Source: Microthrixaceae bacterium | GTDB lineage: Bacteria; Actinomycetota; Acidimicrobiia; Acidimicrobiales; DATDAH01 | Reading direction: 5' to 3' | Length of the DNA stretch: 64,000 bases | Assembly (NCBI GenBank): GCA_020637195.1 | Contig: JACJWK010000015.1 | Span: 6,532-70,531 of the forward strand | Part shown: piece by piece, positions 2,560 through 22,269 of the stretch | Layout of the letters: each line of letters begins with the position of its first letter | How positions within the stretch are numbered: the stretch's first letter is position 1 | Made by a program: the position numbers and the translations under genes | The notes under the pieces: model-generated | The model's database searches: none | The model's input: the letters and a program-made list of their open reading frames with translations, nothing else | Told to the model about the DNA's origin: nothing

Positions 2560-2566
2560 GGCGGCC

Positions 2567-3091
2567 TCATCCTCGCGCTCTGAGCCAGGCCGCCACGTCG
2601 CTCCAACGCTCGAACGACGCGTCCGCGGACGGATGGGCGACCGGCCCGTAGGACACGGTGGCGCACCCGGCGGCACGTCCGGCGCCCACGTCGCTCTCCT
2701 TGTCCCCGACCATCACCGAGTGGCGCAGCTCCAGACCCAAGGTCTGCGCCGCTTGGCGGAGCAGCCCCGTGCGTGGCTTGCGGCACGCGCACCCCTCGTC
2801 GGGGCGGTGGAAGCAGAAGAAGGCTCCATCGAGGCCGACGCCGACCGCCGCGAGGCGCCGCTCGACCTCGGCCTGGACCGCGGCGGCCTCGTCGGGACGG
2901 ATCAGGCCCCGACCGACGCCCGACTGGTTGCCGACGAGCACGAGCCGGTACCCGAGGTCCGATCGAAGCGCACCCAGGCACTCGACCTCGGGGCGCAACC
3001 GCACGAGCGCCGGATCCCGGGGGTAGCCGATGTCATCGATCACCGTGCCGTCGCGATCGAGCAGCAGCGCCCGCGGTCGCGGGTCCGTCAC
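2567..3091 (-). CDS. gmhB: D-glycero-D-manno-heptose-1,7-bisphosphate phosphatase (HAD family)
   Basis: HAD motif LLLDRDGTV, Zn-finger-like CFHRPDEGCACRKP and MVGDKESD. GTGA start/stop overlap with the upstream gene. Confidence 0.85.
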   Translation of the reverse strand: MTDPRPRALLLDRDGTVIDDIGYPRDPALVRLRPEVECLGALRSDLGYRLVLVGNQSGVGRGLIRPDEAAAVQAEVERRLAAVGVGLDGAFFCFHRPDEGCACRKPRTGLLRQAAQTLGLELRHSVMVGDKESDVGAGRAAGCATVSYGPVAHPSADASFERWSDVAAWLRARG

Positions 3092-4221: not shown

Positions 4222-4226
4222 GTCGC

Positions 4227-5471: not shown

Positions 5472-5604
5472 GGGATCGGCACAGTATCAGTCGACGCCCG
5501 GCGGTCCCCTCCCGCCGTTGCCCGACCTCGGGCCGCTCCCACCGGCCCACGGGTGCCCGGTAGGCTGCTCGGCCGGGTCGGGGCAGCGGCGAGGTGACCA
5601 GCAC

Positions 5605-7629: not shown

Positions 7630-7667
7630 GGGCGCGGACGGAGGCGCTCCCCACGCGCCCCCGGTCG

Positions 7668-8480
7668 TCAGGCCAGGGGGTCGGCGAAGGGGTCCGCGAA
7701 CGGGTCGGCCGCCACGCCGGCGGCGGGCTCGCCGTCGACGGACTCGTCCACCCCGAAGCGGGCGTAGCCCTCGGCCTCGAGGGCCTGGGCCAGCTCCGGG
7801 CCACCGGACTCGCGGATGCGGCCCTGCACGAGGATGTGCACCTGGTCGCTCTTCAGCTCGTGGAGCAGCCGGCTGTAGTGGGTGATGGCCAGGACGCCGA
7901 GCCCCCACTCGGTGGTGGCCTCCTCGACCCGCCGGCTCACGCGACGCAGCGCGTCCACGTCGAGGCCGGAATCCAGCTCGTCGAGGATGGCGATGGCGGG
8001 GCGCAGCACGCCGAGCTGGAGGGTCTCGTTGCGCTTCTGCTCGCCGCCGGAGAGGTCCACGTTGAGCTGACGGGCGAGGAACCGCTCGTCGAAGCCGATG
8101 CGCTCGGCCTCGGCGACCATGCGGTCGCGCACGTCGGCCAGGTCGCGTCCGGCGGCCCGGAACGACTCGGCGAACAGGTCCTCGAGCGACACGCCGGGCA
8201 CCTCGACGGGGTACTGCATGGCCAGGAACAGCCCGGCCTGCGCCCGCTCCCATGGTTCGAGGGCGAGCAGGTCCGTGCCGTCGAGCGTGACCGCGCCGCC
8301 GGTGACGCGGTAGCCGGGCCGGCCCATGAGCACGTGGGACAGCGTCGACTTCCCCGACCCGTTCGGGCCCATCACGGCGTGGACCTCGCCGCTGCGCACC
8401 ACCAGGTCGACGCCTCGGAGGATCTCGCGACCCTCGACCTCGGCCCGCAGGCCCTCGATCACCAGCTCGTGCGACGCCAC
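7668..8480 (-). CDS. sufC: Fe-S cluster assembly ATPase SufC
   Basis: Walker A GPNGSGKST, signature LSGGEQKR, Walker B ILDELDSGLD. GTG 8480 is preceded by GAAGGAGG. An alternative GTG 8510 overlaps the Rieske stop as GTGA. The 558-aa track ORF is a fused shadow extension. Confidence 0.9.
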   Translation of the reverse strand: MASHELVIEGLRAEVEGREILRGVDLVVRSGEVHAVMGPNGSGKSTLSHVLMGRPGYRVTGGAVTLDGTDLLALEPWERAQAGLFLAMQYPVEVPGVSLEDLFAESFRAAGRDLADVRDRMVAEAERIGFDERFLARQLNVDLSGGEQKRNETLQLGVLRPAIAILDELDSGLDVDALRRVSRRVEEATTEWGLGVLAITHYSRLLHELKSDQVHILVQGRIRESGGPELAQALEAEGYARFGVDESVDGEPAAGVAADPFADPFADPLA

Positions 8481-8506
8481 CGCGCCTCCTTCGCTCTGCG
8501 CCGCGC

Positions 8507-8827
8507 TCACGGCAGCGTCACCCAGACGTCGCCGTCCACGACCTCGACGTCGTAGACCGGCGTGGCCTTCGTGGCCGGGAGCGCCGACGGCGCGCCGGTC
8601 TCGAGGGAGAACGCGCTCCCGTGCTTCCAGCACTCGATCTGGCGCTCGTCGGCCAGCACCTCGCCCTCGCTGAGCGAGATGTCCTGGTGGGTGCACCGGT
8701 CGCCCACCACGTACACGTCGTCGTCGATGCGCACGACCGCGAGGCGGCGGTCCGCCACGTCGACGCGCCGGGCGGTCCCCGGCTCGAGCTCGGCGAGGGC
8801 GCAGAGGCGCTCCCGGGCGCCGCTCAT
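8507..8827 (-). CDS. Rieske [2Fe-2S] ferredoxin-like protein of the suf operon
   Basis: CTHQDISL..CWKHGSAF (CxH..CxxH). The position between sufD and sufC is the usual one in actinobacterial suf operons, from my recollection of Streptomyces. Confidence 0.85.
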   Translation of the reverse strand: MSGARERLCALAELEPGTARRVDVADRRLAVVRIDDDVYVVGDRCTHQDISLSEGEVLADERQIECWKHGSAFSLETGAPSALPATKATPVYDVEVVDGDVWVTLP

Positions 8828-10089
8828 GGCTGCTGCTCCAGCTTGTCGGCGATGCGGCGACGCAGCTCGGCGACGACCCCCGGGGCCGGCAGCTGCCCGA
8901 GCACCTCGTCGAAGAAGCCCGCCACCACGAGGCGCTCCGCCGCCGCGGGCGGCACGCCCCGGCTCTCGAGGTAGAAGCGCTGGAGCTCGTCGATGGGCCC
9001 GACCGTCGAGGCGTGGCTACACCGCACGTCGTTGTTCTCGATCTCGAGGTTGGGGACCGACTCGGCCCACGCGTCCTCGGACAGCTTGATGTTGCGGTTG
9101 GTCTGGAAGGCGTTGGTGCCGCGCGCGTCCGGGCGCACCCGGATGAGGCCCGTGTAGACCGAGCGCGACCGACCCCCGACCGCCCCCTTGAACAGGAGGT
9201 TGCTGGTGGTGTCGGCGGCGACGTGGTCCTGGAAGGTGCGGAAGTCGAGGGTCTGGTCGCCGTCGCCGAAGTAGACCGCCAGCAGGTCGCCGGACGCGCC
9301 GCGGCCGGTGAGGGCGCAGTCGGTGCGCAGGCGGGCGTAGTCACCGCCGAACGCGGCGGTGGCGGAGACGAGGCGCGCCTGGCCGGCCACGCGGGAGGCC
9401 TGCGTGCCGATCTGCCACACCCGGGGCCCGAGGTCCTGCACCGCGAGGTAGGTGAGGCGGGCCGACGCCCCGACGTCGAGCTCGACCACGGGGACGGTCA
9501 GCGCGGCGACGTCCTCGGAGGCGGCGAGGTCCACGAGGGCGACCTCGCTGTTCTCCCCCGCCCGCACGGCCAGGCGGGGCAGGGACAGGCCTCCCTCCGC
9601 CGCCGTGTGGTGGACCACGACGATCGGGCGGTCCAGCGCGGTCCCCCGCGGCACGTCGAGCACCGCCGGCGCCGGGGCGCCGGCGTCGTTGAGGGCACCG
9701 AAGTAGTCGTCGCGAGCGCCGAACACGGCGCCGAGCACGGCTTCGCCGCCGGCGACGTCGGCGGCGGCGCCGAGCACCACGCCCGCGGCCGCCGCCTGCT
9801 CGTCGAGCTCGACGTGGGCCAGGTGGCCGTCGACCACGACCGCCAGCCCGGCGCGCTCGCCGACCACCCGGTCGGCGCGACGGCGGGCCCCCTCGACGAC
9901 GTCGCTGCCGGGCGAGCCGGGGACGGGCCGGTACGCGGCGAGGTCCAGCTCGCCGATGCGGCTGTAGCGCCAGACCTCCTCGTCGGTGGAGGGGACCTCG
10001 GCGGCGGCGAGACGCTCACCGGATGCGGTGCGGCGGGCCTCGAGCCAGCCGGGACCGGGGGGCAGGGTCACGGTGTCGACGGGGTTCAT
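8824..10089 (-). CDS. sufD: Fe-S cluster assembly protein SufD
   Basis: SufB/SufD-family C-terminal beta-helix region (TFQDHVAADTTSNLLFKGAV..RSVYTGLIRV..NRNIKLSEDAWAESVPNLEI). 4-nt overlap with the downstream Rieske gene. Confidence 0.88.
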   Translation of the reverse strand: MNPVDTVTLPPGPGWLEARRTASGERLAAAEVPSTDEEVWRYSRIGELDLAAYRPVPGSPGSDVVEGARRRADRVVGERAGLAVVVDGHLAHVELDEQAAAAGVVLGAAADVAGGEAVLGAVFGARDDYFGALNDAGAPAPAVLDVPRGTALDRPIVVVHHTAAEGGLSLPRLAVRAGENSEVALVDLAASEDVAALTVPVVELDVGASARLTYLAVQDLGPRVWQIGTQASRVAGQARLVSATAAFGGDYARLRTDCALTGRGASGDLLAVYFGDGDQTLDFRTFQDHVAADTTSNLLFKGAVGGRSRSVYTGLIRVRPDARGTNAFQTNRNIKLSEDAWAESVPNLEIENNDVRCSHASTVGPIDELQRFYLESRGVPPAAAERLVVAGFFDEVLGQLPAPGVVAELRRRIADKLEQQP

Positions 10090-10255
10090 GGCGGGTTCGG
10101 CGCAGCCTCAGGATCGGGGGAGCGGTTCGCGACGAGGGGCCCACCCGGGCGGGCCCCACGCCCTGCGATCCTACCGGCGCACCAGCGCGCGGACCTGGTC
10201 CGGGGCCGGCATCGGTCGATCGTGCCCCTGACCGGTGCCGCCGCCGGGGGGCGAC

Positions 10256-10615
10256 CTACTTGCGCTTCTTCTTGTTCTTCTTGCGGCGGAAGCGGCCCTT
10301 GCGCCCGCGCTCGTCCTCGAGCTCGGCCATGACCCGCGGCCCGGCCTGGTTGATGATGTCCTCGGCTTCGTCCAGCAGCGCGGCCACGGCGCCGTCGTCG
10401 GCGTCGAGGCTGGCGGGCTCGGCGGGCGACGGTGGCGTGACGAGCGTGCCGTGGTGCCAGCCGACGTCGGCCAGCCGGCGCGTGTACTTGGGGCAGTCCT
10501 CGGGGCACCGCCACGGCGCCTCGGGTGCGAGGTCGAGGTCGCACTTGCGCACCGTCTCGCCGTTCGCGTACGAGCGGCTCTCGTAGTACTTGCAGTCCTC
10601 GCGCATCGGCATCAC
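10256..10615 (-). CDS. Small Cys4 protein with a poly-Lys/Arg tail, unknown function
   Basis: 119 aa. Cys at 8, 25, 37 and 41 (C-x16-C-x11-C-x3-C). Acidic middle region and C-terminal RFRRKKNKKKRK. Codon usage looks coding. Confidence 0.6.
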   Translation of the reverse strand: MMPMREDCKYYESRSYANGETVRKCDLDLAPEAPWRCPEDCPKYTRRLADVGWHHGTLVTPPSPAEPASLDADDGAVAALLDEAEDIINQAGPRVMAELEDERGRKGRFRRKKNKKKRK

Positions 10616-10694
10616 CCCATCTTGCCAGCCGCGAGCGCCGGTCCACCCGCACCACGTCCGCCGGCCCTCGCGCCGGTTCCGCGGAGCGGGGTGC

Positions 10695-11657
10695 TCAGGC
10701 GCTGCTGCCGGCGGCCGAGCGCACGCCCACGCGCCGGCCCGGGCCCGTCTCGGTGACCGTCACCCGGATCTCGTCGTCGACCACCTCGAGGTGGTGCCAC
10801 TCGGTGTCGGCCTCGGGGTGGGTGGCGGTGAGGTCCAGCTCGGCGAGGGGTCGCAGCTCGCGCCCGTGCCACGGGCAGCGCTGGCACCCGTCGGCGACGG
10901 GGACGTCGTCGAGCTCGGCCCCCTCGTGGGGGCAGACGCGGCTGAAGGCGAGGACCCGGTCGCCGTCGCGCCGCAGGAGCAGGCCCAGATGGTCGCTGCG
11001 CCCCACCAGCACGGGGGCGCCGCCCGACAGCCCGGCCAGCGGGACCGCGGGGAGGGTCGGCGCCTCGAGCGGTGGGTCGGGGAACTCGAGGTTGTTGGCG
11101 GCCACGGAGATCGTGGCGCGGATGTCGCGTGGTGCGCCGTCACCGCGGAAGGTGTAGCCCCAGGAGCGGAGGCGGCCGCGCCGCTCGCGCAGGGGCGTGT
11201 CCTCGGACATGAGGGTGCGGTGGTTGATCTGGAGCAGCCGGCGGATGACGGGCCAGAGCAGCATCCAGAACCGGGTGCTGGCCACGGTGTAGGTGGTGAC
11301 GGCGCGGGTGCGGGTCTCGGTGACGGGGATGAACTGGTGGCGGGTGACCATCGTCCATGCCAGGGCGGTGACGAAGTGGGCCTGCTCGTTCGGGCCGGTG
11401 TCGTAGTGCACCAGGATCAGCGGGAACGGCATCCCCAGGACGGTCTGGTAGCTGATCGACGCCTGGAGGTCCTTCTCGATGACGCACACCACGTCGGAGA
11501 TGCGGCTGTGGACGAAGTTGCGGTGCACGACGTCCTTGTTGTTCCAGTCGACGTCGCCGGGCTGGTACTCGCCCTCGGTGGTGCACTGCACCGAGCGGTG
11601 CACCATGCCGAACGACTCGAGGCGCTCGACGATGGCGTCATGGCTGAGCTTGACCAC
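10695..11657 (-). CDS. Rieske-domain protein, paralogue A: N-terminal about 215-aa domain with D-x2-H-x4-H, C-terminal Rieske [2Fe-2S] domain
   Basis: KDVVHRNFVH (D42, H45, H50). CPH(242-244)-x16-CPWH(261-264). GTG start at 11657. Confidence 0.8.
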   Translation of the reverse strand: MVKLSHDAIVERLESFGMVHRSVQCTTEGEYQPGDVDWNNKDVVHRNFVHSRISDVVCVIEKDLQASISYQTVLGMPFPLILVHYDTGPNEQAHFVTALAWTMVTRHQFIPVTETRTRAVTTYTVASTRFWMLLWPVIRRLLQINHRTLMSEDTPLRERRGRLRSWGYTFRGDGAPRDIRATISVAANNLEFPDPPLEAPTLPAVPLAGLSGGAPVLVGRSDHLGLLLRRDGDRVLAFSRVCPHEGAELDDVPVADGCQRCPWHGRELRPLAELDLTATHPEADTEWHHLEVVDDEIRVTVTETGPGRRVGVRSAAGSSA

Positions 11658-11665
11658 GGGAGGGC

Positions 11666-11671
11666 AGGTTA
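11666..11671 (-). promoter_or_regulatory. Candidate -10 element TAACCT (TANNNT) 8 nt upstream of the paralogue A GTG; suggests a leaderless or very short leader transcript
   Basis: Same spacing and same type of hexamer as upstream of paralogue B (TAGTCT at 16728-16733). The flanking sequence GCG(C/T)TA is also conserved. Confidence 0.4.
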
Positions 11672-11718
11672 GCGCCGACCCCCGGTCCCCTCCCGAAGGC
11701 CCCGGTGCCGCCGGCGGC

Positions 11719-13341
11719 TCAGGCCGCCGAGGGCTCGAAGTCCCGCTGGGCGGCGCCGGTGCCGCCCGACCCGAGCCCCTTGCGCCGCTGCCGCAGCAGG
11801 GCGTCGAGCTGGGTGGCCTCCTCGGACTTGCCCCGCCACGCCCGGAAGTACGCGAGCATCCGCTTGGGCCGCAGCACGTTCGCCACGCCGTAGAAGGCCA
11901 TCAGCATCGTGAGCTGGGCGATGCGCAGCTTCCGCGTGCTCATCACGGGGTTGTAGCTCTGGTGCTTGCCCGACGACCACGACAGCGCGGTGTACGGGTA
12001 CTCCTCGGTGACCTCGAGGGTGCCGGCCTCCACGAGCGCCTTGAAGTCCTTGCTGCCCGGGTAGGGCCCGAAGATCATCACCGCGGCGTCGTTGGCGCCG
12101 GCGCGCGCGGCCCGGAGCATGAAGCGGAACGACTTCAACAGGTCGGGCCAGCGCTCCTGGGGGTGGCCGATGATGATGTTGATCTTGGTGACGAGCCCGA
12201 TCTGCTTGGCCGCCCGCAGCGAGTTCAAGATGGTGTCGAGGCTGACCCGCTTGTCGTAGATGTCGAGCATGCGCTCGCCCCCGGCCTCGGGGGCGTAGGT
12301 GATGTTGCGACAGCCCGTGTCCCAGAGGCGTTGGAGCACCTCGGCGTCGAGGGCCTCGGCCCGGGTGCCGACCGGGAGCTGCCAGATGAGACCGGGCGCC
12401 TTGGCCTCGAGGGCGTCGCAGAAGCGCAGCGTCCACTGGCGCTTGGTGATGGCGGTGAGGTCGGCGAAGTTGACGTTGCGGACGCCGTAGCGCTCGACGT
12501 ACCCCGCGATCTCCTCGGCGACCTCCTCGGGCTCGCGCACGACGTAGCGCGTGGTCCACATCTGGGGCGACGAGCAGAACGAGCACTTGTACGGGCACCC
12601 GCGGGTGGCCAGCACCGGCATCGAGCGGCCGCGGTTGACGCCGAACGAGTCGGCGAAGCGGAAGTACTGGTCGAGGGGGAACAGGTCCCACGCCGGACGG
12701 GGCACGTCGGGCAGCGCCTTCGTGTTGATGCGGGTGGCGAGGCCGCCGTCGCAGGCCTCGCCGCCGTTGCGCAGGACGAGCCCCTCGAAGCCACCGTCGA
12801 GCGGGATCCCGCGCGCCACCCGGTCGGCGAGCTCGACCACGGTGCGCTCGCCCTCGCCGAGCACGCAGGCGTCGATGGCGTCGGTCTGCTCGAACATCCA
12901 CTTCCAGTAGCCGGTGGCGTTCTCGCCGCCGCACACGATGAGCACGTCGGGGAAGCGGTCCCGGACGGCCTCGGCGATCTCGCGCACGTGCGGCCACTCG
13001 TGCAGGAACATGTGGGTGATCCCGACCATCTTCGTGTCGGGGTGCAGGCGGTCGACGATCTCCGCCACGGAGATGCCGCACTGGCGCAGCGTGCCGATCG
13101 GGCTGGGGCGGTCGACGATCTGGTCGATGCCCTCCCCCGCCGAGTCGACGACGTCCACGGTGTGGCCGGCGTCGCGGAGCACCGCGGCGATGTAGGCCAG
13201 GCCGATGGGCGGCACCGGCCCGTACCACGAGAAGCTCTTGGGGAACACGATCGTGTTCGGGCGGATGAGAGCCACCCGGGTGGACGCGTCCCCCGTGGGG
13301 CGGCGCGTGGGCGCCGCCAGCGTCACTGCATCGCTCACCAT
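11719..13341 (-). CDS. B12-binding (class B) radical SAM enzyme
   Basis: N-terminal Rossmann-like B12-binding region (VALIRPN..PPIGLAYIAAVLRDAGH..VGITHMF..VCGGENAT). Radical SAM cluster motif CPYKCSFC. 540 aa. Confidence 0.85.
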   Translation of the reverse strand: MVSDAVTLAAPTRRPTGDASTRVALIRPNTIVFPKSFSWYGPVPPIGLAYIAAVLRDAGHTVDVVDSAGEGIDQIVDRPSPIGTLRQCGISVAEIVDRLHPDTKMVGITHMFLHEWPHVREIAEAVRDRFPDVLIVCGGENATGYWKWMFEQTDAIDACVLGEGERTVVELADRVARGIPLDGGFEGLVLRNGGEACDGGLATRINTKALPDVPRPAWDLFPLDQYFRFADSFGVNRGRSMPVLATRGCPYKCSFCSSPQMWTTRYVVREPEEVAEEIAGYVERYGVRNVNFADLTAITKRQWTLRFCDALEAKAPGLIWQLPVGTRAEALDAEVLQRLWDTGCRNITYAPEAGGERMLDIYDKRVSLDTILNSLRAAKQIGLVTKINIIIGHPQERWPDLLKSFRFMLRAARAGANDAAVMIFGPYPGSKDFKALVEAGTLEVTEEYPYTALSWSSGKHQSYNPVMSTRKLRIAQLTMLMAFYGVANVLRPKRMLAYFRAWRGKSEEATQLDALLRQRRKGLGSGGTGAAQRDFEPSAA

Positions 13342-13430
13342 GGGTCGAGGCTAGTTGGGCGAACGGCCCTTCGTCCATGGGTCGCGCCGGTGAGCGGTCC
13401 CCGGGGCGCCTCGGACCGTCGTCGGCCCGC

Positions 13431-15098
13431 TCAGTCCGCCGGCGCGGCGACCGGCACGGTCACCGGCGGCGAACCCCGGCCCTCGGCCTGGGCGGTCAGC
13501 TCGGGTCCCAGCGAGTCCCACATCGCCTGCGCGATCACCTGGGCCCCGGCCTCGTCCGTGTGCACCACGTCGTAGAACGGCGACGGGTCGCCCCCGAACA
13601 CGTCCGAGAGGTCGATCACGCCCTCGGGCAGGCGCTCGAGCACCTCGGGCGGCCAGCCGGCGGCCCTCGGCTGCCAGAAGAAGCGCACGGGGACGTCGTA
13701 GTCGTCGGCGAGGTCCTCGACCAGCCCCTTCGCCCGCCCGTAGATGTCGAGGGCGGCGTCGGTCTGCTCCTCGGGGGTTCCCACCTCGGCGTCGTCGAGG
13801 CCGGGCAGGCCCACCTCGCGGCCCCGGAAGGTGTCCCACAGCCGCCACGCGCCGCTGGCCCGTCGGTACGAGTCGGCCAACTCGCCGAGGCCGTCGAGGC
13901 CGCCCGGCTCGGACGCCCGCAGCTCGCGGAAGTCGGTGATCAGGCCGTTCAGCACCACCGCCGAGTGGTGGGTGGGCTCCTCGTCGAAGTCGGTCATCTG
14001 GACGTCGAACTCGTTGAACCCGTCGAAGAAGACCACCATGTCGTAGTCCTCGCCCGACGCGAGGAGCCGCTCCATCAGCAGGTACTCCTGCCAGGCCACC
14101 CAGGCCGGGAAGCCGTAGTTGTGGACCTCGACGGGGACGCCGTTCTCCTCGGCGATGCGGGCGAAGGCCGAGGGGATCGTGTGCTCGTCGCGCTGGCCGA
14201 CGCCGAACATCACCGAGCCGCCCATGAAGGCGATCTTCAGCGGCTCGACCCCCGGCGGCACCTCCGGCTCGTACGACACCCGCTCGCTGTTGGTGACGTT
14301 GACCGTCGGGCTCGAGAACTCGTTGTCGCCCCGGATCAGGTACGGGATGTAGTCGTTGGTCTGGAGCTCGAAGGCGGCCATGTCCCGGCCGTGCTGCTGG
14401 GCCCACGGCGACTCGTTCATGGGTGGGTTCGACATGTCGCGCTGGAGCGACTGCTCGATCTGGGCGACGAGGTCGCCCCGGTCGACCGGGGGCAGCACGC
14501 CCGTGGCGGTGAACAGGGCGCCCACCGCCAGGTCGACGACGACGAGGACCGCCACCACCGCCAGGGCCACCACCACCTTGGGGGCCTTGGCCCCCGGGGC
14601 CCGCGTGGGCTCGGAGCCGAACGTGCGCTTCGGTGGCCCCTCGGGAGCCATGGCCACCTTGGGGATCCAGCCGTCGCCCGCCAGGCCGCGGGGGCGACCG
14701 AGGGGGGTCGTGCGGAACAGCCACTGGATCGCGGCCAGCGGCAGGAACACCAGCACGAACATGAACCCGAGCAGCACGAACCGCAGCAGATGGCCGACCC
14801 CGCGCCCGAAGGCCTCCAACGCCCGGAGGAAGGCGCGATCGAACCCCGGCGACAGCGCCCGCCCCGCCGTGAGGAGCAGCACCACCACGACGAGGACGGC
14901 GGCGGCCTCGGTGCGCCCGCGGGCGAGGAGGAGGGCGGCCACGGCGCCCGCGATGACGAGGGGGAGCAGCAGCGACAGCCCTCGGTGGGGACCCGCCGCC
15001 TTCGGCTCGGGGGATTCGGCGCCCCAGGTCGGCAGGATCACCTCGGAGCGCTCGTAGCCGTCGCGGGCCACGGTCCGGTCCTCCAGCGAGGTGCTCAC
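13431..15098 (-). CDS. Membrane-anchored SGNH/GDSL-like hydrolase or acyltransferase, paralogue 1
   Basis: About 4 N-terminal TM helices. SGNH-like blocks are FMGGSVMFG (block I), FFDGFNEF (block III) and DVVHTDE (block V). GTG 15098 overlaps the stop of the upstream GT-C gene as GTGA. The track ORF to 15551 is over-extended. Confidence 0.7.
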   Translation of the reverse strand: MSTSLEDRTVARDGYERSEVILPTWGAESPEPKAAGPHRGLSLLLPLVIAGAVAALLLARGRTEAAAVLVVVVLLLTAGRALSPGFDRAFLRALEAFGRGVGHLLRFVLLGFMFVLVFLPLAAIQWLFRTTPLGRPRGLAGDGWIPKVAMAPEGPPKRTFGSEPTRAPGAKAPKVVVALAVVAVLVVVDLAVGALFTATGVLPPVDRGDLVAQIEQSLQRDMSNPPMNESPWAQQHGRDMAAFELQTNDYIPYLIRGDNEFSSPTVNVTNSERVSYEPEVPPGVEPLKIAFMGGSVMFGVGQRDEHTIPSAFARIAEENGVPVEVHNYGFPAWVAWQEYLLMERLLASGEDYDMVVFFDGFNEFDVQMTDFDEEPTHHSAVVLNGLITDFRELRASEPGGLDGLGELADSYRRASGAWRLWDTFRGREVGLPGLDDAEVGTPEEQTDAALDIYGRAKGLVEDLADDYDVPVRFFWQPRAAGWPPEVLERLPEGVIDLSDVFGGDPSPFYDVVHTDEAGAQVIAQAMWDSLGPELTAQAEGRGSPPVTVPVAAPAD

Positions 15099-16537
15099 GA
15101 CGCGGTCTCCTCGGTCGTCTCCGGCCCGGCGGCCGTCACGGGTGGCTCCTCGTCGGCCTCGAGCCGGTCGCGGCAGAGGAAGCCGGCGGCCAGCACGGCC
15201 ACGAAGGGCAGGACGGGGAAGCGGTAGTGCGGCTGGGCCACCGCGCCCACGATGGCCAGGGTGAACAGCACCGGGGGCACCCAGATGGTCGGGGCGCGCC
15301 GGCAGGCGGGCACGAAGGCGAGGCCGGCGAGGGCGAGCGCGCCGACCACCCACAGCCAGACGTTGGCCAGCGTGCCCAGCGGGTCCATCCAGCCGCCGGC
15401 CCAGGTGGCCGACTGGTAGTTGCGGGCGGCCTCGACCACGCGCCCCTCGTCGCTCCAGGTCTCCCACACCTTGGCCACGGTGAGCCGCGCCTCCTGGGCG
15501 GGGTGCGACGCCGCCCAGGCCACGGCGTCCGAGACGCGGTCCTGGTACCACGCCACCTCATCGACCTCGGCGTCGCCCACGCCCTCGGGCACCTCACGGC
15601 CCCGCACGAGGTAGGGCTCGGGGTCGTCGTAGGGGGACCCGCGGAAGCACTCGACCTGGAGGCTCGGGTTCGCGAGGCTCTCGCTCCAGTCGGCGGAGAT
15701 GTCGTCGTTGTGGCCGAAGCACAGCGCCGACGCGTTGCTCGTCGAGCCCGGGCTCCAGATCCCGACCTGGACCCCGTTGCGGATGGTCCAGGGCACGAGC
15801 AGCACCGCCGCACCCGCGAGGACCAGGCCCGTGGCACGCAGCGCGGGCCGCCACGACGCCGACCACGACCCGCGGCGCACCCGCAGGGCCAGGACGGGCG
15901 CGGCCAACCCGATGATGCCCGGGGCCCGGAAGAGGACCCCCAGCCCCACCAGCAGGCCGGCGAGCAGCCAGTTCCGGTCGGGGACGTCGCGCGTGCGCGA
16001 GCCGGCCAGGAGGTAGGCGCCGAGCAGCACGGGTGTGAAGGCGGTCTCGGTGTGGGCCGTCGAGGTGTAGAAGATCAGGCTGGGCCACAGCGCCACGAGC
16101 CAGGCCGCGGTGACCCGGGCACGCGTGCCGATCCAGCGCTCGGCGAGCAGGGCCGTGAACCAGATCGTGAGGGTGCCGGCGACCACGTTGACCAGCGACG
16201 CCGCGAAGGCGGGGCTCAACAGCCCGGTCTCGTCGGCGAACCAGACGAACGGGGCGAGGATGAAGGGGTAGCCGGGCGACCAGTAGGCACTCGGCCCGCC
16301 GGTGCCACCGAAGGTCGGCAGGTCGCCGCCGGTGAGGTCCAGCGCGATGCGCAGGTACTCCGACGGGTCGGTGGGGAACTCGGGCGTGCGGGTGGCCCAG
16401 ACGACCCACAGCAGCCGCAGCCCGGCGCCCACGAGCACGGCGGCGAGCAGCGCCCGACGGCCGTCGCTCCCGCCGACCCGAGCGCCTCCGCCGCGCCCGG
16501 CCCGCGCGGGGGCCGCCGACGGGTCGGCAGTCGTCAT
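15095..16537 (-). CDS. GT-C family glycosyltransferase (ArnT/PMT_2-like, polyprenyl-phosphate-sugar dependent type)
   Basis: Multi-TM protein with N-terminal GLRLLWVVWATRTPEFPTDPSEYLRIA..YWSPGYPFILAP typical of the dolichyl/undecaprenyl-P-sugar transferase family. ATG 16537. Confidence 0.7.
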   Translation of the reverse strand: MTTADPSAAPARAGRGGGARVGGSDGRRALLAAVLVGAGLRLLWVVWATRTPEFPTDPSEYLRIALDLTGGDLPTFGGTGGPSAYWSPGYPFILAPFVWFADETGLLSPAFAASLVNVVAGTLTIWFTALLAERWIGTRARVTAAWLVALWPSLIFYTSTAHTETAFTPVLLGAYLLAGSRTRDVPDRNWLLAGLLVGLGVLFRAPGIIGLAAPVLALRVRRGSWSASWRPALRATGLVLAGAAVLLVPWTIRNGVQVGIWSPGSTSNASALCFGHNDDISADWSESLANPSLQVECFRGSPYDDPEPYLVRGREVPEGVGDAEVDEVAWYQDRVSDAVAWAASHPAQEARLTVAKVWETWSDEGRVVEAARNYQSATWAGGWMDPLGTLANVWLWVVGALALAGLAFVPACRRAPTIWVPPVLFTLAIVGAVAQPHYRFPVLPFVAVLAAGFLCRDRLEADEEPPVTAAGPETTEETAS

Positions 16538-16727
16538 CGGTGCAGCCCCCGGGCGGCGCCCACGAGGGCCCGGTGGCCGACGGCGGGGTTCACGATGTGC
16601 AGCGTGCCCTTCCTCGCGGGGTTGGGACCAGGCCCTCGGTCGGCGGCCGAGCATAGTGGTCGCCCCCGACCGGCAGCCCGCGGGCCGACCCGTCGCAGGG
16701 CCGGCGGACCGGGGACGGCCGTCGCGT

Positions 16728-16733
16728 TAGTCT
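16728..16733 (+). promoter_or_regulatory. Candidate -10 element TAGTCT 8 nt upstream of the paralogue B GTG
   Basis: TANNNT hexamer with spacing identical to paralogue A. Confidence 0.4.
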
Positions 16734-16741
16734 CGACCGCC

Positions 16742-17710
16742 GTGGTCAAGCTGAGCGCAGACGCCATCGTCGAGCGCCTCGAGGAGTTCGGCATGGTGCA
16801 CCGCACCCTGTCGATGCAGACCGAGGGCGAGTACCTGCCCACGGACGTGGACTGGAACAACAAGGACGTCCCCCACCTGAACGAGGTGCACAGCCTCGTC
16901 GACGACATCACGTGCGTCGTCGAGCGCAACATGCAGGCCTCGATCAGCCTCCAGAAGGTGGTCGGGATCACCAACCCGCTGATCCTCGTCCACTACGACG
17001 CCGAGACCAACCACCAGACCCACTTCGTCACGCTGCTGGCGTGGACGATGGTGACCGACCACGAGTTCATCGCCCTCTCCCCCACCCGCACGCGCGCGGT
17101 CACCACGTACACGGTGTGCTCGAGCCGGTTCTGGATGTTGTTCTGGCCTCTCATCCGGGCGCTGTTGCGCCGCAACTACCGCCAGCTCATGTCCGAGGAC
17201 GTGCCGCTGCGCGAGCGCCGGGGCCTGCTGCGCTCCTGGGGCTACACCTTCCGGGGCGACGGTGAGCTGCGCGACATCCGGGCGTCGCTGAACGTCCACG
17301 CCAACAACGTCTTCGCACCCGACCCCCCGGCCGCCGACCCCCCCGTCTTCGCCCCGGTCCCCGTCGACGACCTGCGTCCCGACCGCCCCACCTTCGTCGG
17401 CCGCAGCGACCACCTCGGGCTCCTCCTGCGCCGGGAGGGCCGCCGGGTCTCGGCGTTCGCCCGCATGTGCCCCCACGAGGGCGCCGAGCTCGACAACGTC
17501 GCGGTGGCCCACGATTGCCAGACGTGCCCCTGGCACGGCCGCGAGCTCGAGCCGCTCGCCGTGCTCGACCTCGACGCCGACCGCCCGGCCGCCGACACGC
17601 CCTGGCACCACCTCGAGGTCGTCGACGGCAAGCTCGAGGTGGTGGTGACCGACGCCGGCGACGCCAAGCGCCGGCCCGCGCCCGCCGGCGAGCACGCCGC
17701 GCGACCCTGA
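16742..17710 (+). CDS. Rieske-domain protein, paralogue B (same permuted architecture as 10695-11657)
   Basis: About 65% aa identity to paralogue A by eye along the full length. KDVPHLNEVH; CPHEGAELDNVAVAHDCQTCPWHG. GTG 16742 is in frame with track ORF 15227-17710. Confidence 0.8.
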   Translation: MVKLSADAIVERLEEFGMVHRTLSMQTEGEYLPTDVDWNNKDVPHLNEVHSLVDDITCVVERNMQASISLQKVVGITNPLILVHYDAETNHQTHFVTLLAWTMVTDHEFIALSPTRTRAVTTYTVCSSRFWMLFWPLIRALLRRNYRQLMSEDVPLRERRGLLRSWGYTFRGDGELRDIRASLNVHANNVFAPDPPAADPPVFAPVPVDDLRPDRPTFVGRSDHLGLLLRREGRRVSAFARMCPHEGAELDNVAVAHDCQTCPWHGRELEPLAVLDLDADRPAADTPWHHLEVVDGKLEVVVTDAGDAKRRPAPAGEHAARP

Positions 17711-17746
17711 GGCGCCCGGTCGGCGCGTCGCCGCCCCGACCCGGCG

Positions 17747-19150
17747 TCAGCCGACCGAGCCCTCCATCTGCAGCTCGATCAGGCGGGACCACTCGACCGC
17801 GTACTCCATGGGGAGGGTGCGGGTGACGGGCTCGATGAAGCCGTTCACCACCATGCCCATGGCCTGCTCCTCGGAGAGGCCCCGGCTCATCAGGTAGAAG
17901 AGCTGCTCGTCGGCCACCTTGGACACGGTGGCCTCGTGGCCGATGCGGGCGTCGCGGGCCCCCACCTCCATGTAGGGGAAGGTGTCGGAGATGGAGTCCT
18001 CGTCGAGGATGAGGGCGTCGCACTGGACGTGGCTGACGCAGCCGGGGGCGTCGTCCTCGACCCGGACGAGCCCGCGGTAGCTGGTGCGGCCGCCGTCCTT
18101 GGAGATCGACTTGGAGACGATCTTCGACGTCGTCTCGGGGGCGGCGTGCACCATCTTGGCGCCGGCGTCCTGGTGCTGGCCCTCGCCGGCGTACGCCACC
18201 GAGAGCACCTCACCCGAGGCCTTGGGACCCACCATGTAGACCGCGGGGTACTTCATGGTGAGGCGGGACCCGATGTTGCCGTCGATCCACTCCATGTGGC
18301 CTTCGGCCTCGACCCGCGCCCGCTTGGTGACCAGGTTGAACACGTTGCTCGACCAGTTCTGGATGGTCGTGTAGGTGACCCGGGCCGAGGGCTTGACCAC
18401 GATCTCCACGACGGCGGAGTGCAGGGAGTCGCTGGTGTAGACCGGCGCCGAGCAGCCCTCGATGTAGTGCACCTGGGAGCCCTCGTCGGCGATGATCAGC
18501 GTCCGCTCGAACTGGCCCATGTTCTCGGCGTTGATGCGGAAGTAGGCCTGGAGCGGCATCTCCACCGACACGCCCGGGGGCACGTAGATGAAGCTGCCGC
18601 CGCTCCACACCGCGGTGTTGAGGGCGGCGAACTTGTTGTCGTTCTTGGGGATGACCGTGCCGAAGTAGGCCTTGACGATCTCGGGGTGCTCGCGCAGGGC
18701 CGTGTCCATGTCGGTGAAGATCACGCCCTGGGCCTCGAGGTCCTCGCGGTTGCGGTGGTAGACGACCTCGCTCTCGTACTGCGCCGTGACGCCGGCGAGG
18801 TACTTGCGCTCGGCCTCGGGGATGCCCAGCTTCTCGTAGGTGGACTTCACCGAGTCGGGCAGCTCGTCCCAGGCGTCGACCTGCTTGTCGGTGGGCTTGA
18901 TGTAGTAGTAGATGTCGTCGAAGTAGATCTCCGACATGTCGCCACCCCAGTTGGGCATGGGTCGGCGCTCGAAGTGCTGGAGCGACTTCAGGCGGTTGTC
19001 CCGCATCCAGTCGGGCTCGCCCTTCATCCACGACATCTCCTGCACGATGTCGCGCGAGAGGCCCTTCTTGGGCTTGAAGACGTAGTCCTCCTCGTCGCTC
19101 CAGCCCAACTTGTAGCGCCCGAGGTCGAGGTCGAGCTCGCTGGTGGCCAT
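17747..19150 (-). CDS. sufB: Fe-S cluster assembly protein SufB
   Basis: Highly conserved SufB sequence ([56 protein letters not shown]). ATG 19150. The 1072-aa track ORF is an upstream shadow extension. Confidence 0.95.
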
Positions 19151-19220
19151 CGCTGCCGCTCCTGTGGTCGGGGGGTGGACCCGCCCGGTCGGGGTGCCCG
19201 TCGGCGCCGTCCGGGTCCGG

Positions 19221-19250
19221 TAATTACTCCTACGCCGATAGTAACAAATC
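19221..19250. promoter_or_regulatory. AT-rich island in the sufB / GGDEF-EAL divergent intergenic region, with weak inverted repeat TTACT-N11-AGTAA; candidate promoter/operator
   Basis: taattactcctacgccgatagtaacaaatc is conspicuously AT-rich against the GC background. No sufR gene is present in the window. Confidence 0.3.
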
Positions 19251-19339
19251 CCTCCGGCCGCGCCTCCTTCAGGCACCACGCGACCTGCCGATAGTGCCCG
19301 GAGGGCGCGCCGCGCCCCGGGCAGCGTGCGATCGAGGCG

Positions 19340-22204: not shown

Positions 22205-22269
22205 GCCCAGCCGCCGCGGGGCTCCGGTTCACCGCCCGGACCGGCCCTCGACCTGCCAGACTGCGCCCG

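What the first reader, a model, noticed from the sequence alone, without database searches (positions are those of the whole stretch)
10256..17710. Six-gene Fe-S / radical / glycan-tailoring cassette wedged between sufD and sufB: candidate undescribed envelope-modification system
Six genes I cannot place in any characterised pathway lie between sufD (ends 10089) and sufB (starts 17747).
- Five run on the minus strand: a GT-C (ArnT/PMT_2-like) glycosyltransferase (15095-16537), a membrane-anchored SGNH protein coupled to it by a GTGA overlap (13431-15098), a B12-binding radical SAM enzyme with CPYKCSFC (11719-13341), a permuted Rieske protein (10695-11657) and a Cys4 mini-protein (10256-10615).
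- The sixth is a second permuted Rieske paralogue, transcribed divergently (16742-17710).

GT-C plus an SGNH ectodomain points to extracytoplasmic modification of a polyprenol-linked glycan or lipid. A class B radical SAM enzyme and Rieske oxygenases suggest C-methylation or other radical chemistry plus hydroxylation.

Four of the six products need Fe-S clusters or Cys-ligated metal. That could explain why the cassette sits inside the Fe-S assembly operon.
Basis: partly seen in the sequence, partly recalled or inferred. Interest (0 to 1): 0.85.

Follow-up and report, generated by a model that had tools for sequence, protein, structure and literature searches.

The report
Envelope-glycan tailoring cassette splitting suf operon
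Five uncharacterised genes, probably for decorating a cell-surface sugar polymer or glycolipid, have been inserted into the iron-sulfur-cluster assembly operon of one group of Acidimicrobiales bacteria, and two of them encode a Rieske oxygenase with its two domains in reverse order.

Summary

The unit has five genes, not six. The Cys4 mini-protein is a native suf gene. It belongs to a family of at least 4810 clusters and sits between sufB and sufD in Acidimicrobiales genomes that lack the cassette.

The five genes are pRO2, GT-C, SGNH, a B12-type radical SAM enzyme (rSAM) and pRO1. They keep this order inside suf in five related Microthrixaceae/Acidimicrobiales MAGs. The same four families also cluster away from suf on unrelated contigs, among GT4, GT2, ABC2-exporter, 2OG-oxygenase and SPASM-rSAM genes. 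So this is a real functional module, and its position in suf is specific to one lineage.

The "permuted Rieske" proteins model confidently. They have an N-terminal SRPBCC domain whose best structural matches are Rieske-oxygenase catalytic domains, with invariant D-x2-H-x4-H plus Asp. A C-terminal Rieske domain follows. That is the reverse of the canonical order, and I found no description of it.

Best reading (about 0.45): a GT-C-based extracytoplasmic glycan-decoration system whose lipid-linked sugar is first tailored in the cytoplasm by the rSAM enzyme and the oxygenases. The substrate is unknown.

The Fe-S explanation for the location is weak. Non-Fe-S envelope genes have entered the same suf region too.

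The parts
16742..17710 (+). pRO2: domain-order-inverted Rieske oxygenase paralogue (322 aa). It is divergent from the GT-C gene and convergent with sufB.
   Evidence: C-terminal Rieske domain, 33.3 bits. 65% identical to pRO1. Carries the invariant D-x2-H-x4-H, Asp and CxH...CxxH residues. The divergent GT-C|pRO pair also occurs away from suf in L014, L025, L026 and L029.
16538..16741 (.). 204-bp divergent intergenic region between the GT-C gene and pRO2; presumed to hold promoters for both directions.
   Evidence: Sequence read. No sigma-70-like or Rfam match, so the promoter role is inferred from geometry only.
15095..16537 (-). GT-C-type polytopic glycosyltransferase (480 aa, PMT_2-like).
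   Evidence: PMT_2 30.4 bits against a 26.1 cut-off; weak GT87 match. Asp57 in the PTDPSEYLRIA segment after the first hydrophobic stretch, T163/E164 and two Cys in the large loop are invariant. 77% identical in relatives.
13431..15098 (-). Four-TM membrane protein with an acidic C-terminal SGNH-like domain (555 aa). Its start overlaps the GT-C stop (GTGA).
   Evidence: GTGA overlap. SGNH blocks I, III and V conserved. Lipase_GDSL_2 below cut-off. The loop before the last TM is K/R-rich, and the C-terminal domain has 64 D+E against 22 K+R, so it is predicted to lie outside the cell.
11719..13341 (-). B12-binding-domain radical SAM enzyme (540 aa, CX3CX2C = CPYKCSFC).
   Evidence: Pfam B12-binding plus Radical_SAM. 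All NCBIfam equivalogs are far below cut-off; the best are Sden_1168-type 140 bits, BchE 122, ApyD 118 and HpnR 100. Best solved relatives are AprD4 (1.5e-17) and TokK (2e-10). 85-91% identical in relatives, as conserved as SufC.
10695..11657 (-). pRO1: domain-order-inverted Rieske oxygenase (320 aa).
   Evidence: AF2 model with pLDDT 89.6 and pTM 0.85. Top Foldseek PDB hits are Rieske oxygenases GxtA/SxtT (E 1.6e-6) and KshA, plus SRPBCC proteins. D35, W38, N39, D42, H45, H50, D153, C242, H244, C261 and H264 are invariant.
10256..10615 (-). cys4: small Cys4 protein. It is a native suf-operon gene that marks the downstream edge of the insertion, not part of the cassette.
   Evidence: At least 4810 homologous clusters. 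Lies between sufB and sufD in cassette-less L017 and L018. C8, C25, C37, C41 and H55 are invariant.
17747..19150 (-). sufB: upstream edge of the insertion (host operon).
   Evidence: TIGR01980, 708 bits.
7668..10089 (-). sufD (8824-10089), Rieske-type ferredoxin (8507-8827) and sufC (7668-8453). This is the host operon downstream of the insert, co-oriented with it.
   Evidence: The same order occurs in L017 and L018.

Best explanation
The insert is a five-gene accessory module that decorates an envelope glycoconjugate. It is a variant of the GT-C-based extracytoplasmic glycan-modification systems.

Proposed steps, all inferred:
1. In the cytoplasm, the B12-type radical SAM enzyme and the two inverted-order Rieske oxygenases tailor a sugar at unactivated carbons, by C-methylation or another radical step plus O2-dependent hydroxylation. 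The sugar is most likely carried on polyprenyl phosphate; it could instead be the nucleotide-sugar precursor.
2. The lipid-linked product is flipped across the membrane.
3. The GT-C enzyme transfers it to an acceptor glycan on the outer face.
4. The SGNH ectodomain, translationally coupled to the GT-C, adds or removes an O-acyl group there.

The module entered the suf operon between sufB and cys4 in an ancestor of one Microthrixaceae/Acidimicrobiales clade. It may now be read through into cys4-sufD-Fd-sufC.

Shown: gene content, domains, conserved catalytic residues, co-occurrence of the four families, and where they sit. Inferred: substrate, order of steps, chemistry and co-transcription.
For: - The order of the five genes is conserved inside suf in five related genomes at 65-91% identity.
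- The same families co-cluster away from suf.
  - L014+L021 is one ~20-kb cluster: B12-rSAM (57%), then GT4, GT4, a GT-C paralogue, SGNH (44%), GT-C (54%), and a divergent pRO (59%).
  - L015 has pRO (47%), B12-rSAM and a GT-C homologue, with SGNH and GT4 genes nearby.
  - L012 has pRO divergent from a B12-rSAM, among GT4, Polysacc_deac, ABC2 exporter, Bac_transf and epimerase genes.
  - The P0069 contig has UbiA divergent from pRO, then epimerase and PIG-L, with GT2 and a B12-rSAM nearby.
  - L025, L026 and L029 have the divergent GT-C|pRO pair.
- Close rSAM homologues (56-67%) sit next to small GT2 enzymes. The best family matches for these GT2s are polyprenyl-phosphate sugar synthases (ArnC, AglJ, PpgS), though below threshold.
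- The GT-C matches PMT_2 above cut-off and has an invariant first-loop Asp.
- The SGNH catalytic blocks are conserved and the domain is predicted to be outside the cell.
- The GTGA overlap couples the GT-C and SGNH genes.
- pRO has an SRPBCC fold like Rieske-oxygenase catalytic domains plus invariant metal-ligand residues.
Against: - The cassette has no GT2 polyprenyl-phosphate sugar synthase and no flippase gene, and I could not search the rest of the genome.
- Nothing indicates the substrate.
- The rSAM enzyme is far from every characterised equivalog. It could be a methylase, a dehydratase (AprD4 is its best solved relative) or something else.
- The Rieske-oxygenase assignment of the pRO N-terminal domain rests on a predicted fold and a motif. 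Sequence and profile searches did not link it to known oxygenase catalytic domains.
- The extended clusters also hold an AMP-binding/PP-binding/TE protein, Asp_Arg_Hydrox, PhyH and SPASM-rSAM enzymes. These would fit a lipid or peptide substrate equally well.
- pRO homologues below 40% identity sit in unrelated contexts.
Confidence: 0.45

Rival explanations
1. Lipid tailoring rather than glycan tailoring. The rSAM enzyme and the pROs methylate and hydroxylate a membrane lipid or the polyprenyl carrier itself, as hopanoid or sterol methylases and oxidases do. The GT-C and SGNH proteins then glycosylate or acylate that lipid.
For: - The pRO N-terminal domain has the START/SRPBCC fold, typical of hydrophobic-ligand binders.
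- Distant pRO homologues sit beside FA_desaturase plus SDR (L016), LPG_synthase_TM and UbiA.
- rSAM sub-threshold hits include HpnR (100 bits), HpnJ and a lipid-biosynthesis B12-rSAM family.
- The extended clusters hold FA_hydroxylase, PhyH, Asp_Arg_Hydrox (the Pfam family that, from my own knowledge, includes the lipid A hydroxylase LpxO) and an AMP-binding/PP/TE protein.
Against: - No isoprenoid, hopanoid or fatty-acid synthesis genes lie in or near the cassette.
- The partners most consistently present are glycosyltransferases (GT-C, GT4, GT2) and exporters.
- All lipid-family rSAM scores are far below their cut-offs.
Confidence: 0.2
2. Protein or peptide modification. The PMT_2-type GT-C O-glycosylates a secreted protein or peptide whose residues are first C-methylated or hydroxylated by the rSAM enzyme and the pROs, in the manner of RiPP tailoring.
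For: - PMT_2 is the protein-O-mannosyltransferase-like family.
- The rSAM enzyme scores 118 bits against the RiPP enzyme ApyD and 67 bits against RiPP C-methyltransferases.
- The extended clusters are rich in SPASM-rSAM and Asp_Arg_Hydrox enzymes.
Against: - No precursor-peptide gene is evident in the cassette. The only small ORF, cys4, is a suf gene.
- Neighbouring genes in the extended clusters are classic polysaccharide machinery: Bac_transf, ABC2/ABC_tran, GT4 and Polysacc_deac.
- The RiPP-family scores are far below cut-off.
Confidence: 0.1
3. The position inside suf is functional. The cassette is co-expressed with SUF because its three Fe-S enzymes need clusters, or because the pROs take electrons from the Rieske-type ferredoxin encoded between sufD and sufC.
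For: - The position is retained in five related genomes and several metagenome contigs.
- In L005 and L023, which lack pRO2, sufB, GT-C, SGNH, rSAM, pRO1, cys4, sufD, Fd and sufC all face the same way, with a 199-bp sufB-GT-C gap.
- Gaps between cassette genes on the minus strand are 61-166 bp, and no terminator-like site falls in them; the single hit in the scanned region lies inside pRO2.
- The cassette encodes no ferredoxin or reductase, whereas the suf operon supplies an HcaC-like Rieske ferredoxin (88 bits).
Against: - Homologous modules lie away from suf in at least six other contexts, with no ferredoxin gene seen within 10 kb.
- Suf embedding is limited to pRO homologues of about 62% identity or more, so it could be inheritance from a single insertion.
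- The same suf region has also taken in non-Fe-S envelope genes: memb756, GT9 plus ADP-heptose genes, SGNH2 and ABC exporters.
Confidence: 0.15
4. The five genes are not a functional unit. They are merely neighbours inherited together within one narrow clade.
For: The suf-embedded arrangement is known only from closely related Acidimicrobiales/Microthrixaceae genomes, where synteny could reflect descent alone.
Against: - The four families recur together in different orders and orientations on unrelated contigs, at 26-59% identity.
- The GT-C and SGNH genes are translationally coupled.
- The rSAM enzyme is as conserved as SufC.
Confidence: 0.07

Closest known systems
Three-component extracytoplasmic glycan-decoration systems: GT2 polyprenyl-phosphate sugar synthase, flippase and GT-C transferase. 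Examples are ArnC/ArnE-F/ArnT, GtrB/GtrA/GtrC, and mycobacterial PpgS/Rv3779 (from my own knowledge of the literature).
   Same: A PMT_2/ArnT-like GT-C is the core membrane enzyme. Close rSAM homologues elsewhere sit next to small GT2 enzymes that resemble ArnC, AglJ and PpgS. The system is accessory and lineage-specific.
   Different: The cassette has no GT2 or flippase. It adds a B12-type radical SAM enzyme, two Rieske oxygenases and a coupled SGNH ectodomain, none of which belong to the described systems.
Rieske non-heme iron oxygenases (GxtA/SxtT, KshA, VanA/NDO-type alpha subunits).
   Same: A Rieske CxH...CxxH cluster domain. An SRPBCC catalytic-type fold, with GxtA/SxtT as top structural matches. 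An invariant D-x2-H-x4-H motif plus an Asp on the long helix, laid out as in the 2-His-1-carboxylate site with its bridging Asp.
   Different: The domain order is reversed: catalytic domain first, Rieske domain last. There is no detectable sequence or profile similarity of the N-terminal domain to known oxygenase catalytic families. The protein is compact at ~320 aa, and no dedicated reductase or ferredoxin gene is adjacent.
NamH, the mycobacterial UDP-N-acetylmuramic acid hydroxylase.
   Same: An actinobacterial enzyme with a C-terminal Rieske domain that hydroxylates a cell-wall sugar precursor (domain layout quoted from PMC10050696).
   Different: The N-terminal catalytic domain of NamH is a UlaG/metallo-beta-lactamase fold, not SRPBCC. 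No homology to pRO outside the Rieske domain.
Class B (cobalamin-dependent) radical SAM enzymes acting on sugars or lipids: GenK and Fom3-type C-methylases, TokK, HpnR, and the diol-dehydratase AprD4.
   Same: An N-terminal B12-binding domain plus a CX3CX2C radical SAM core. AprD4 and TokK are the nearest solved structures.
   Different: It is far below every equivalog cut-off (best 140 bits against 575). It forms its own large Acidimicrobiales-rich family, with at least 3857 clusters at E<1e-20. The reaction is unknown.
Membrane-anchored SGNH/GDSL O-acyl transferases and esterases of envelope polymers (OatA C-terminal domain, PatB/Ape, DltD-like; from my own knowledge).
   Same: Conserved Ser (block I), Asn (block III) and Asp-x-x-His (block V). 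The domain is membrane-tethered and predicted to lie outside the cell.
   Different: Very divergent: below the Pfam cut-off, with no PDB sequence match. It has its own conserved three-TM N-terminal module, shared with the paralogue at 21547-23901.
Actinobacterial suf operon (sufB-sufD-Rieske ferredoxin-sufC-sufS-sufU).
   Same: The flanking genes are a normal suf operon. The Acidimicrobiales form is sufB-cys4-sufD-Fd-sufC.
   Different: Here sufB is separated from cys4-sufD by 7 kb of unrelated genes. sufS and sufU are displaced by further envelope genes.

Membership tests
Rieske non-heme iron oxygenase (alpha subunit) | Rieske [2Fe-2S] domain with CxH...CxxH ligands | tested here: met
   PF00355 at 30.2 and 33.3 bits against a 20.3 cut-off. 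C242, H244, C261 and H264 are invariant in 26 sequences.
Rieske non-heme iron oxygenase (alpha subunit) | Catalytic domain of the SRPBCC/helix-grip fold | tested here: met
   AF2 model with pLDDT 89.6. Top Foldseek PDB hits are GxtA/SxtT (E 1.6e-6 to 1e-5) and KshA (1e-4), with other SRPBCC proteins. This is a predicted structure, not a solved one.
Rieske non-heme iron oxygenase (alpha subunit) | 2-His-1-carboxylate iron site with a bridging Asp (D-x2-H-x4-H, plus Asp on the long helix) | tested here: inconclusive
   D42-x2-H45-x4-H50 and D153 (on helix 135-165) are invariant down to 21% identity. I could not inspect the model coordinates, and metal binding cannot be tested with these tools.
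Rieske non-heme iron oxygenase (alpha subunit) | Domain order: Rieske N-terminal, catalytic domain C-terminal | tested here: not met
   The order is reversed. Among the 150 best of 372 family clusters, nearly all are ~300-320 aa with the catalytic-type domain at residues ~1-200.
Rieske non-heme iron oxygenase (alpha subunit) | Sequence-level membership of a known oxygenase catalytic-domain family | tested here: not met
   The N-terminal 200 aa give no Pfam or NCBIfam hit. A profile of the domain finds nothing in PDB sequences at E<=10. hhalign against E. coli HcaE gives probability 0.2%.
Class B (B12-dependent) radical SAM enzyme | CX3CX2C radical SAM core plus an N-terminal B12-binding domain | tested here: met
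   PF04055 65.1 bits and PF02310 63.3 bits. The CPYKCSFC motif is read in the translation.
Class B (B12-dependent) radical SAM enzyme | Membership of a characterised equivalog (HpnR, BchE, ApyD, AprD4, PhpK, and others) | tested here: not met
   All 23 NCBIfam hits are far below their cut-offs; the best is 139.6 bits against 575.
Class B (B12-dependent) radical SAM enzyme | Binds cobalamin and transfers methyl groups | not testable with these tools
   AprD4, the nearest solved relative, has a B12-like domain. From my own knowledge it acts as a dehydratase, not a methylase.
GT-C glycosyltransferase (PMT_2/ArnT-like) | Family HMM above the curated cut-off | tested here: met
   PF13231, 30.4 bits against 26.1.
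GT-C glycosyltransferase (PMT_2/ArnT-like) | Conserved acidic residue in the first extracytoplasmic loop | tested here: met
   D57 in PTDPSEYLRIA, directly after the first hydrophobic segment, is invariant in 8 homologues down to 34% identity. The loop's location is inferred from hydropathy only.
GT-C glycosyltransferase (PMT_2/ArnT-like) | Uses a polyprenyl-phosphate-linked sugar donor | not testable with these tools
   Inferred from family behaviour only.
SGNH/GDSL hydrolase-acyltransferase | Block I Ser, block III Asn, block V Asp-x-x-His | tested here: met
   FxGGS, DGFNE and DxVHTxE are conserved in 9 of 10 homologues. The L015 copy has Ser to Ala and His to Leu.
SGNH/GDSL hydrolase-acyltransferase | Family HMM above the curated cut-off | tested here: not met
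   Lipase_GDSL_2, 21.2 bits against 32.9. Four of 10 homologues match at E<=0.01. Only the paralogue at 22300-23901 passes a cut-off (Lipase_GDSL, 24.3 against 23.6).
Three-component GT-C glycan-decoration system | GT2 polyprenyl-phosphate sugar synthase and a small flippase encoded with the GT-C | tested here: not met
   Neither is in the cassette nor found among the ORFs I scanned across ~1-42.6 kb of the window; not every ORF in that span was scanned. GT2 enzymes resembling ArnC, AglJ and PpgS flank rSAM homologues in L011 and L013. The rest of the genome was not available.
suf operon (for the Cys4 gene) | Conserved position inside suf, independent of the cassette | tested here: met
   The order is sufB-cys4-sufD-Rieske Fd-sufC in L017 and L018, which have no cassette. 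The family has at least 4810 clusters, against 85 for pRO.

The most novel reading that the evidence does not exclude
The pRO proteins found a previously undescribed class of Rieske oxygenase with reversed domain order. This class works with a new subfamily of cobalamin-type radical SAM enzymes on polyprenyl-phosphate-linked sugars, making C-methylated and hydroxylated sugars that a GT-C/SGNH pair installs on the Acidimicrobiia envelope. In Microthrixaceae the module has become part of the suf transcription unit, and the suf Rieske ferredoxin feeds electrons to the oxygenases.
Probability: 0.15. Interest if true: 0.75.

Novelty: new variant of a known kind. Interest (0 to 1): 0.55.

Why it matters
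- The work defines an uncharacterised four-family gene module (GT-C, SGNH, B12-rSAM, inverted Rieske oxygenase) that recurs in Acidimicrobiia envelope clusters. Nothing is known about surface glycans or glycolipids in this group.
- From the MAG names, the close relatives are activated-sludge Microthrixaceae. From my own knowledge, cell-surface properties in that group matter for sludge bulking and foaming.
- The inverted-order Rieske oxygenase family has 372 clusters at 50% identity. It has no Pfam or NCBIfam model for its catalytic half, and I found no paper on it. It would extend the architectural range of a well-studied enzyme class.
- Radical-SAM tailoring coupled to a GT-C decoration pathway would be new chemistry for bacterial glycans.
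- The corrected operon map also exposes a very widespread, unnamed Cys4 protein as a regular member of the Acidimicrobiia suf operon.

Tried and rejected
- **pRO N-terminal domain, sequence level.** A profile search against PDB sequences gave no hit at E<=10. hhalign against E. coli HcaE gave probability 0.2%. The oxygenase link therefore rests on predicted fold and motif only.
- **First genome scan.** I repeated it with A2.
- **Cys4 structure.** The AF2 model was low-confidence (pLDDT 62), so I ran no fold search.
- **Promoters and terminators.** The scan of 7500-19500 found no promoter-like site and one terminator-like site, fewer than the 1.8 expected from shuffles. This is uninformative in a genome of this GC content.
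- **Rfam.** The scan of 1-30000 at E<=0.1 found nothing, and in particular no cobalamin riboswitch.
- **Insertion scars.** The repeat search at the cassette edges gave only short GC-rich matches.
- **PDB sequence searches.** The GT-C and SGNH proteins had no hit.
- **Literature.** Searches for a permuted or C-terminal-Rieske oxygenase, and for rSAM/Rieske/glycosyltransferase systems, found no relevant description except NamH.
- **Query error, corrected.** My first sufB query was translated one base out of frame. It still marked the locus, and I corrected it to 17747-19150.
- **Rejected idea.** I considered that the pROs act as electron donors to the rSAM enzyme. From my own knowledge, Rieske cluster potentials are too positive to reduce a radical SAM cluster.

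Full report
**1. Observation**

The six ORFs are where the finding says. Their GC3 of 0.89-0.98 marks them as real genes in this ~73% GC genome.

Pfam and NCBIfam give the following:
- Two 320-322-aa paralogues (65% identical) carry a Rieske domain only at the C-terminus. Nothing matches their first ~200 residues.
- A 540-aa protein has B12-binding plus Radical_SAM domains and the motif CPYKCSFC.
- A 480-aa protein matches PMT_2 (GT-C) above cut-off.
- A 555-aa membrane protein matches Lipase_GDSL_2 only below cut-off.
- A 119-aa Cys4 protein matches no family.

The GTGA overlap joining the GT-C stop and the SGNH start is real. sufD, the small Rieske ferredoxin, sufC and sufB (17747-19150, TIGR01980 708 bits) flank the block.

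**2. The unit has five genes, not six**

The Cys4 protein belongs to a very large and very conserved family. There are at least 4810 clusters, about 70% identity across Acidimicrobiales, and C8, C25, C37, C41 and H55 are invariant. By comparison the pRO family gave 85 clusters in the same kind of search.

In two Acidimicrobiales genomes without the cassette, the order is sufB-cys4-sufD-Rieske Fd-sufC, with cys4 starting at or within a few bases of the sufB stop (L017 and L018). So cys4 is an ancestral suf gene. The insert lies between sufB and cys4 and comprises pRO2 (+), then GT-C, SGNH, rSAM and pRO1 (all on the minus strand).

**3. Synteny inside suf**

A scan of species-representative genomes found five Acidimicrobiales/Microthrixaceae MAGs with the same arrangement. 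These are L001, L002, L004, L005, and L003 plus L006 from one MAG. Metagenome contigs L022, L023, L024, L027 and L028 repeat it.

Amino-acid identities to the window:

| Gene | Identity |
|---|---|
| rSAM | 85-91% |
| GT-C | 75-77% |
| SGNH | 66-74% |
| pRO1 | 65-83% |
| pRO2 | 66-84% |
| SufD | 71-75% |
| SufC | 86-90% |

Three variants occur:
- L001 and L002 carry an extra single-TM SGNH paralogue between pRO1 and cys4.
- L005 and L023 lack pRO2. There, sufB, GT-C, SGNH, rSAM, pRO1, cys4, sufD, Fd and sufC all face the same way.
- L028 reads pRO-SGNH-cys4-sufD.

**4. The same families cluster away from suf**

- **L014 and L021** are two views of one contig. It carries a ~20-kb cluster: ABC2, P450, PhyH, B12-rSAM (57% to the window's), an AMP-binding/PP/TE protein, PhyH x2, SPASM-rSAM, PhyH, GT4 x2, a GT-C paralogue (38%), SGNH (44%) and GT-C (54%), with a divergent pRO (59% to pRO2). 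No suf gene is present.
- **L015** has three SPASM-rSAM genes, then pRO (47%), B12-rSAM (26%) and a GT-C homologue (32%), with SGNH (31%), GT4 genes, Asp_Arg_Hydrox and an AMP-binding/PP/TE protein nearby.
- **L012** has pRO (44%) divergent from a B12-rSAM (28%), among GT4, Polysacc_deac_1, ABC2/ABC_tran, Bac_transf, epimerase, PhyH and PIG-L genes.
- **The P0069 contig** has UbiA divergent from pRO (34%), then epimerase and PIG-L, with GT2 and five rSAM genes including a B12-rSAM.
- **Short contigs L025, L026 and L029** show the divergent GT-C|pRO pair with no sufB downstream.

pRO homologues below about 40% identity sit in other contexts: methyltransferase, FA_desaturase/SDR, MOSC or LPG_synthase_TM.

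Every pRO homologue of 42% identity or more with readable flanks sits next to a GT-C, SGNH and/or B12-rSAM gene, and the 34%-identity P0069 contig also carries a B12-rSAM. The four families therefore form a recurrent module.

**5. What the pRO proteins are**

The AF2 model of pRO1 is confident (pLDDT 89.6, pTM 0.85). It shows an N-terminal helix-grip/SRPBCC domain ending in a long helix (residues 135-165), followed by a C-terminal Rieske domain.

In the Foldseek search of the PDB, 22 of the top 26 matches are the Rieske oxygenases GxtA and SxtT (E from 1.6e-6); the Zhui cyclase and TTHA0849 fill the rest. KshA also appears, and the remaining matches are generic SRPBCC proteins.

Across 26 sequences down to 21% identity, the invariant residues are D35, W38, N39, D42, H45, H50, D153, R157, R159, R164 and G167, plus the Rieske ligands C242, H244, C261 and H264. 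The pattern D42-x2-H45-x4-H50, with an Asp on the long helix, has the layout of the Rieske-oxygenase bridging Asp and 2-His-1-carboxylate site. For comparison, HcaE reads NWK...D-x2-H-x4-H.

Sequence methods do not connect the domain to known oxygenase catalytic families. An exhaustive profile search with the N-terminal domain finds 372 clusters at 50% identity. Nearly all of the best 150 are ~300-320 aa with the domain at the N-terminus, so the reversed order is the fixed architecture of this family.

I found no paper describing it. The nearest functional analogue with a C-terminal Rieske domain is NamH, which hydroxylates UDP-MurNAc but uses a UlaG-fold catalytic domain (PMC10050696).

I conclude, at about 0.7 confidence, that these are Rieske oxygenases with inverted domain order. 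Metal binding and activity are untested.

**6. The other components**

*rSAM.* This is the class B layout, but it falls far below every equivalog cut-off. The nearest solved relatives are AprD4 and TokK. It belongs to a large family rich in Acidimicrobiales, often with tandem paralogues. Its 56-67% homologues sit beside small GT2 enzymes whose best, sub-threshold matches are the polyprenyl-phosphate sugar synthases ArnC, AglJ and PpgS.

*GT-C.* It matches PMT_2. Asp57 directly after the first hydrophobic segment is invariant, and the large loop has two conserved Cys.

*SGNH.* The catalytic Ser, Asn and Asp-x-x-His blocks are conserved. The protein has four hydrophobic segments and a K/R-rich loop before the last one. 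Its C-terminal domain is very acidic (64 D+E against 22 K+R), which places it outside the cell by the positive-inside rule.

**7. Why it sits in suf**

The cassette-less layout (L017) is Flavin_Reduct, Hexapep, sufB, cys4, sufD, Fd, sufC, Pterin_4a, ABC, sufS, sufU. In the window the same backbone is interrupted three times:
- two ABC exporters, an SGNH paralogue and a PAS-GGDEF-EAL gene lie between Hexapep and sufB;
- the five-gene cassette lies between sufB and cys4;
- a 756-aa membrane protein, a GT9 heptosyltransferase and a full ADP-heptose pathway (GmhA/RfaE-II fusion, HAD, RfaE-I kinase) lie between sufC and sufU/sufS.

The heptose block is missing from the relatives. The region therefore behaves as a place where envelope genes accumulate, and most of those genes have no evident Fe-S need.

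Together with the copies of the module that lie away from suf, this makes the Fe-S-demand explanation weak. It is not excluded. Co-orientation, short gaps and the lack of a ferredoxin gene in the cassette leave room for read-through into sufD-sufC, or for use of the suf Rieske ferredoxin.

**8. Mechanism and novelty**

The best-supported model (about 0.45) is a GT-C-based extracytoplasmic decoration pathway. Its lipid-linked sugar is tailored in the cytoplasm by the rSAM enzyme and the two oxygenases, and then handled on the outer face by the GT-C/SGNH pair. The rivals are lipid tailoring (0.2), peptide or protein modification (0.1), and no functional unit at all (0.07). Functional coupling to SUF (0.15) is a separate question about location, so these figures are not meant to sum to 1.

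I found no homologue in a characterised pathway. I rate the finding a new variant of a known kind. It is of moderate interest because of the inverted Rieske oxygenase family and the recurrent rSAM/oxygenase/GT-C/SGNH module. It is less striking than first proposed, because one of the six genes was misassigned and the suf link is specific to one lineage.

Noticed in passing
window 10256-10615 (-); L017 6001-6372; L018 6001-6357: An unnamed, highly conserved small Cys4 protein is a regular member of the Acidimicrobiales suf operon, sitting between sufB and sufD. C8, C25, C37, C41 and H55 are invariant, and it has a basic C-terminal tail. The family has at least 4810 clusters and no Pfam or NCBIfam model. 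The AF2 model was low-confidence (pLDDT 62).
   Followed up: partly
window 1573-5471 (-): A complete ADP-heptose pathway plus a GT9 heptosyltransferase in an actinobacterium: RfaE-I kinase at 334 bits, a GmhA/RfaE-II fusion and a HAD phosphatase. The block lies between the 756-aa membrane protein and sufU/sufS, and is absent from the five closest relatives.
   Followed up: partly
window 5359-7629 (+): A 756-aa polytopic membrane protein with no Pfam or NCBIfam match. It is conserved (50-61% identity) directly beside sufC on the opposite strand in all related genomes. It may be another envelope enzyme.
   Followed up: no
window 21547-23901 (+): A second SGNH paralogue, 27% identical to the cassette copy. 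It shares the conserved N-terminal membrane module (SPxFDR...GRxxxxLL) and passes the Lipase_GDSL cut-off. It is followed by two ABC exporter genes (23921-27534).
   Followed up: partly
L001 11232-12269; L002 11075-12163; L022; L027: Some relatives carry an extra SGNH paralogue between pRO1 and cys4. Only the last-TM equivalent is seen in the aligned region, and it is 52-54% identical to the cassette SGNH. The cassette therefore varies in content within the clade.
   Followed up: no
L015 58-825: The SGNH homologue in this cluster away from suf has the catalytic Ser replaced by Ala and the block V His replaced by Leu. It is probably catalytically inactive.
   Followed up: no
P0326 (631 aa) and P0415 (618 aa): Two members of the pRO family are double-length. 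P0326 has two matched stretches of the N-terminal domain, which suggests a tandem fusion of two inverted Rieske oxygenases.
   Followed up: no
L013 11641-13203: A second rSAM paralogue lies directly downstream of the 67%-identical homologue. It matches in several reading frames, so it is either a frameshifted pseudogene or an assembly error.
   Followed up: no
window 8507-8827 (-): The suf operon encodes an HcaC-like Rieske-type ferredoxin between sufD and sufC. This is the kind of electron carrier that Rieske oxygenases normally use, and it lies three genes downstream of pRO1.
   Followed up: no
window 39404-40342 (+): A gene with AbiEi_4 antitoxin-like and DUF559 domains, unrelated to the finding.
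   Followed up: no
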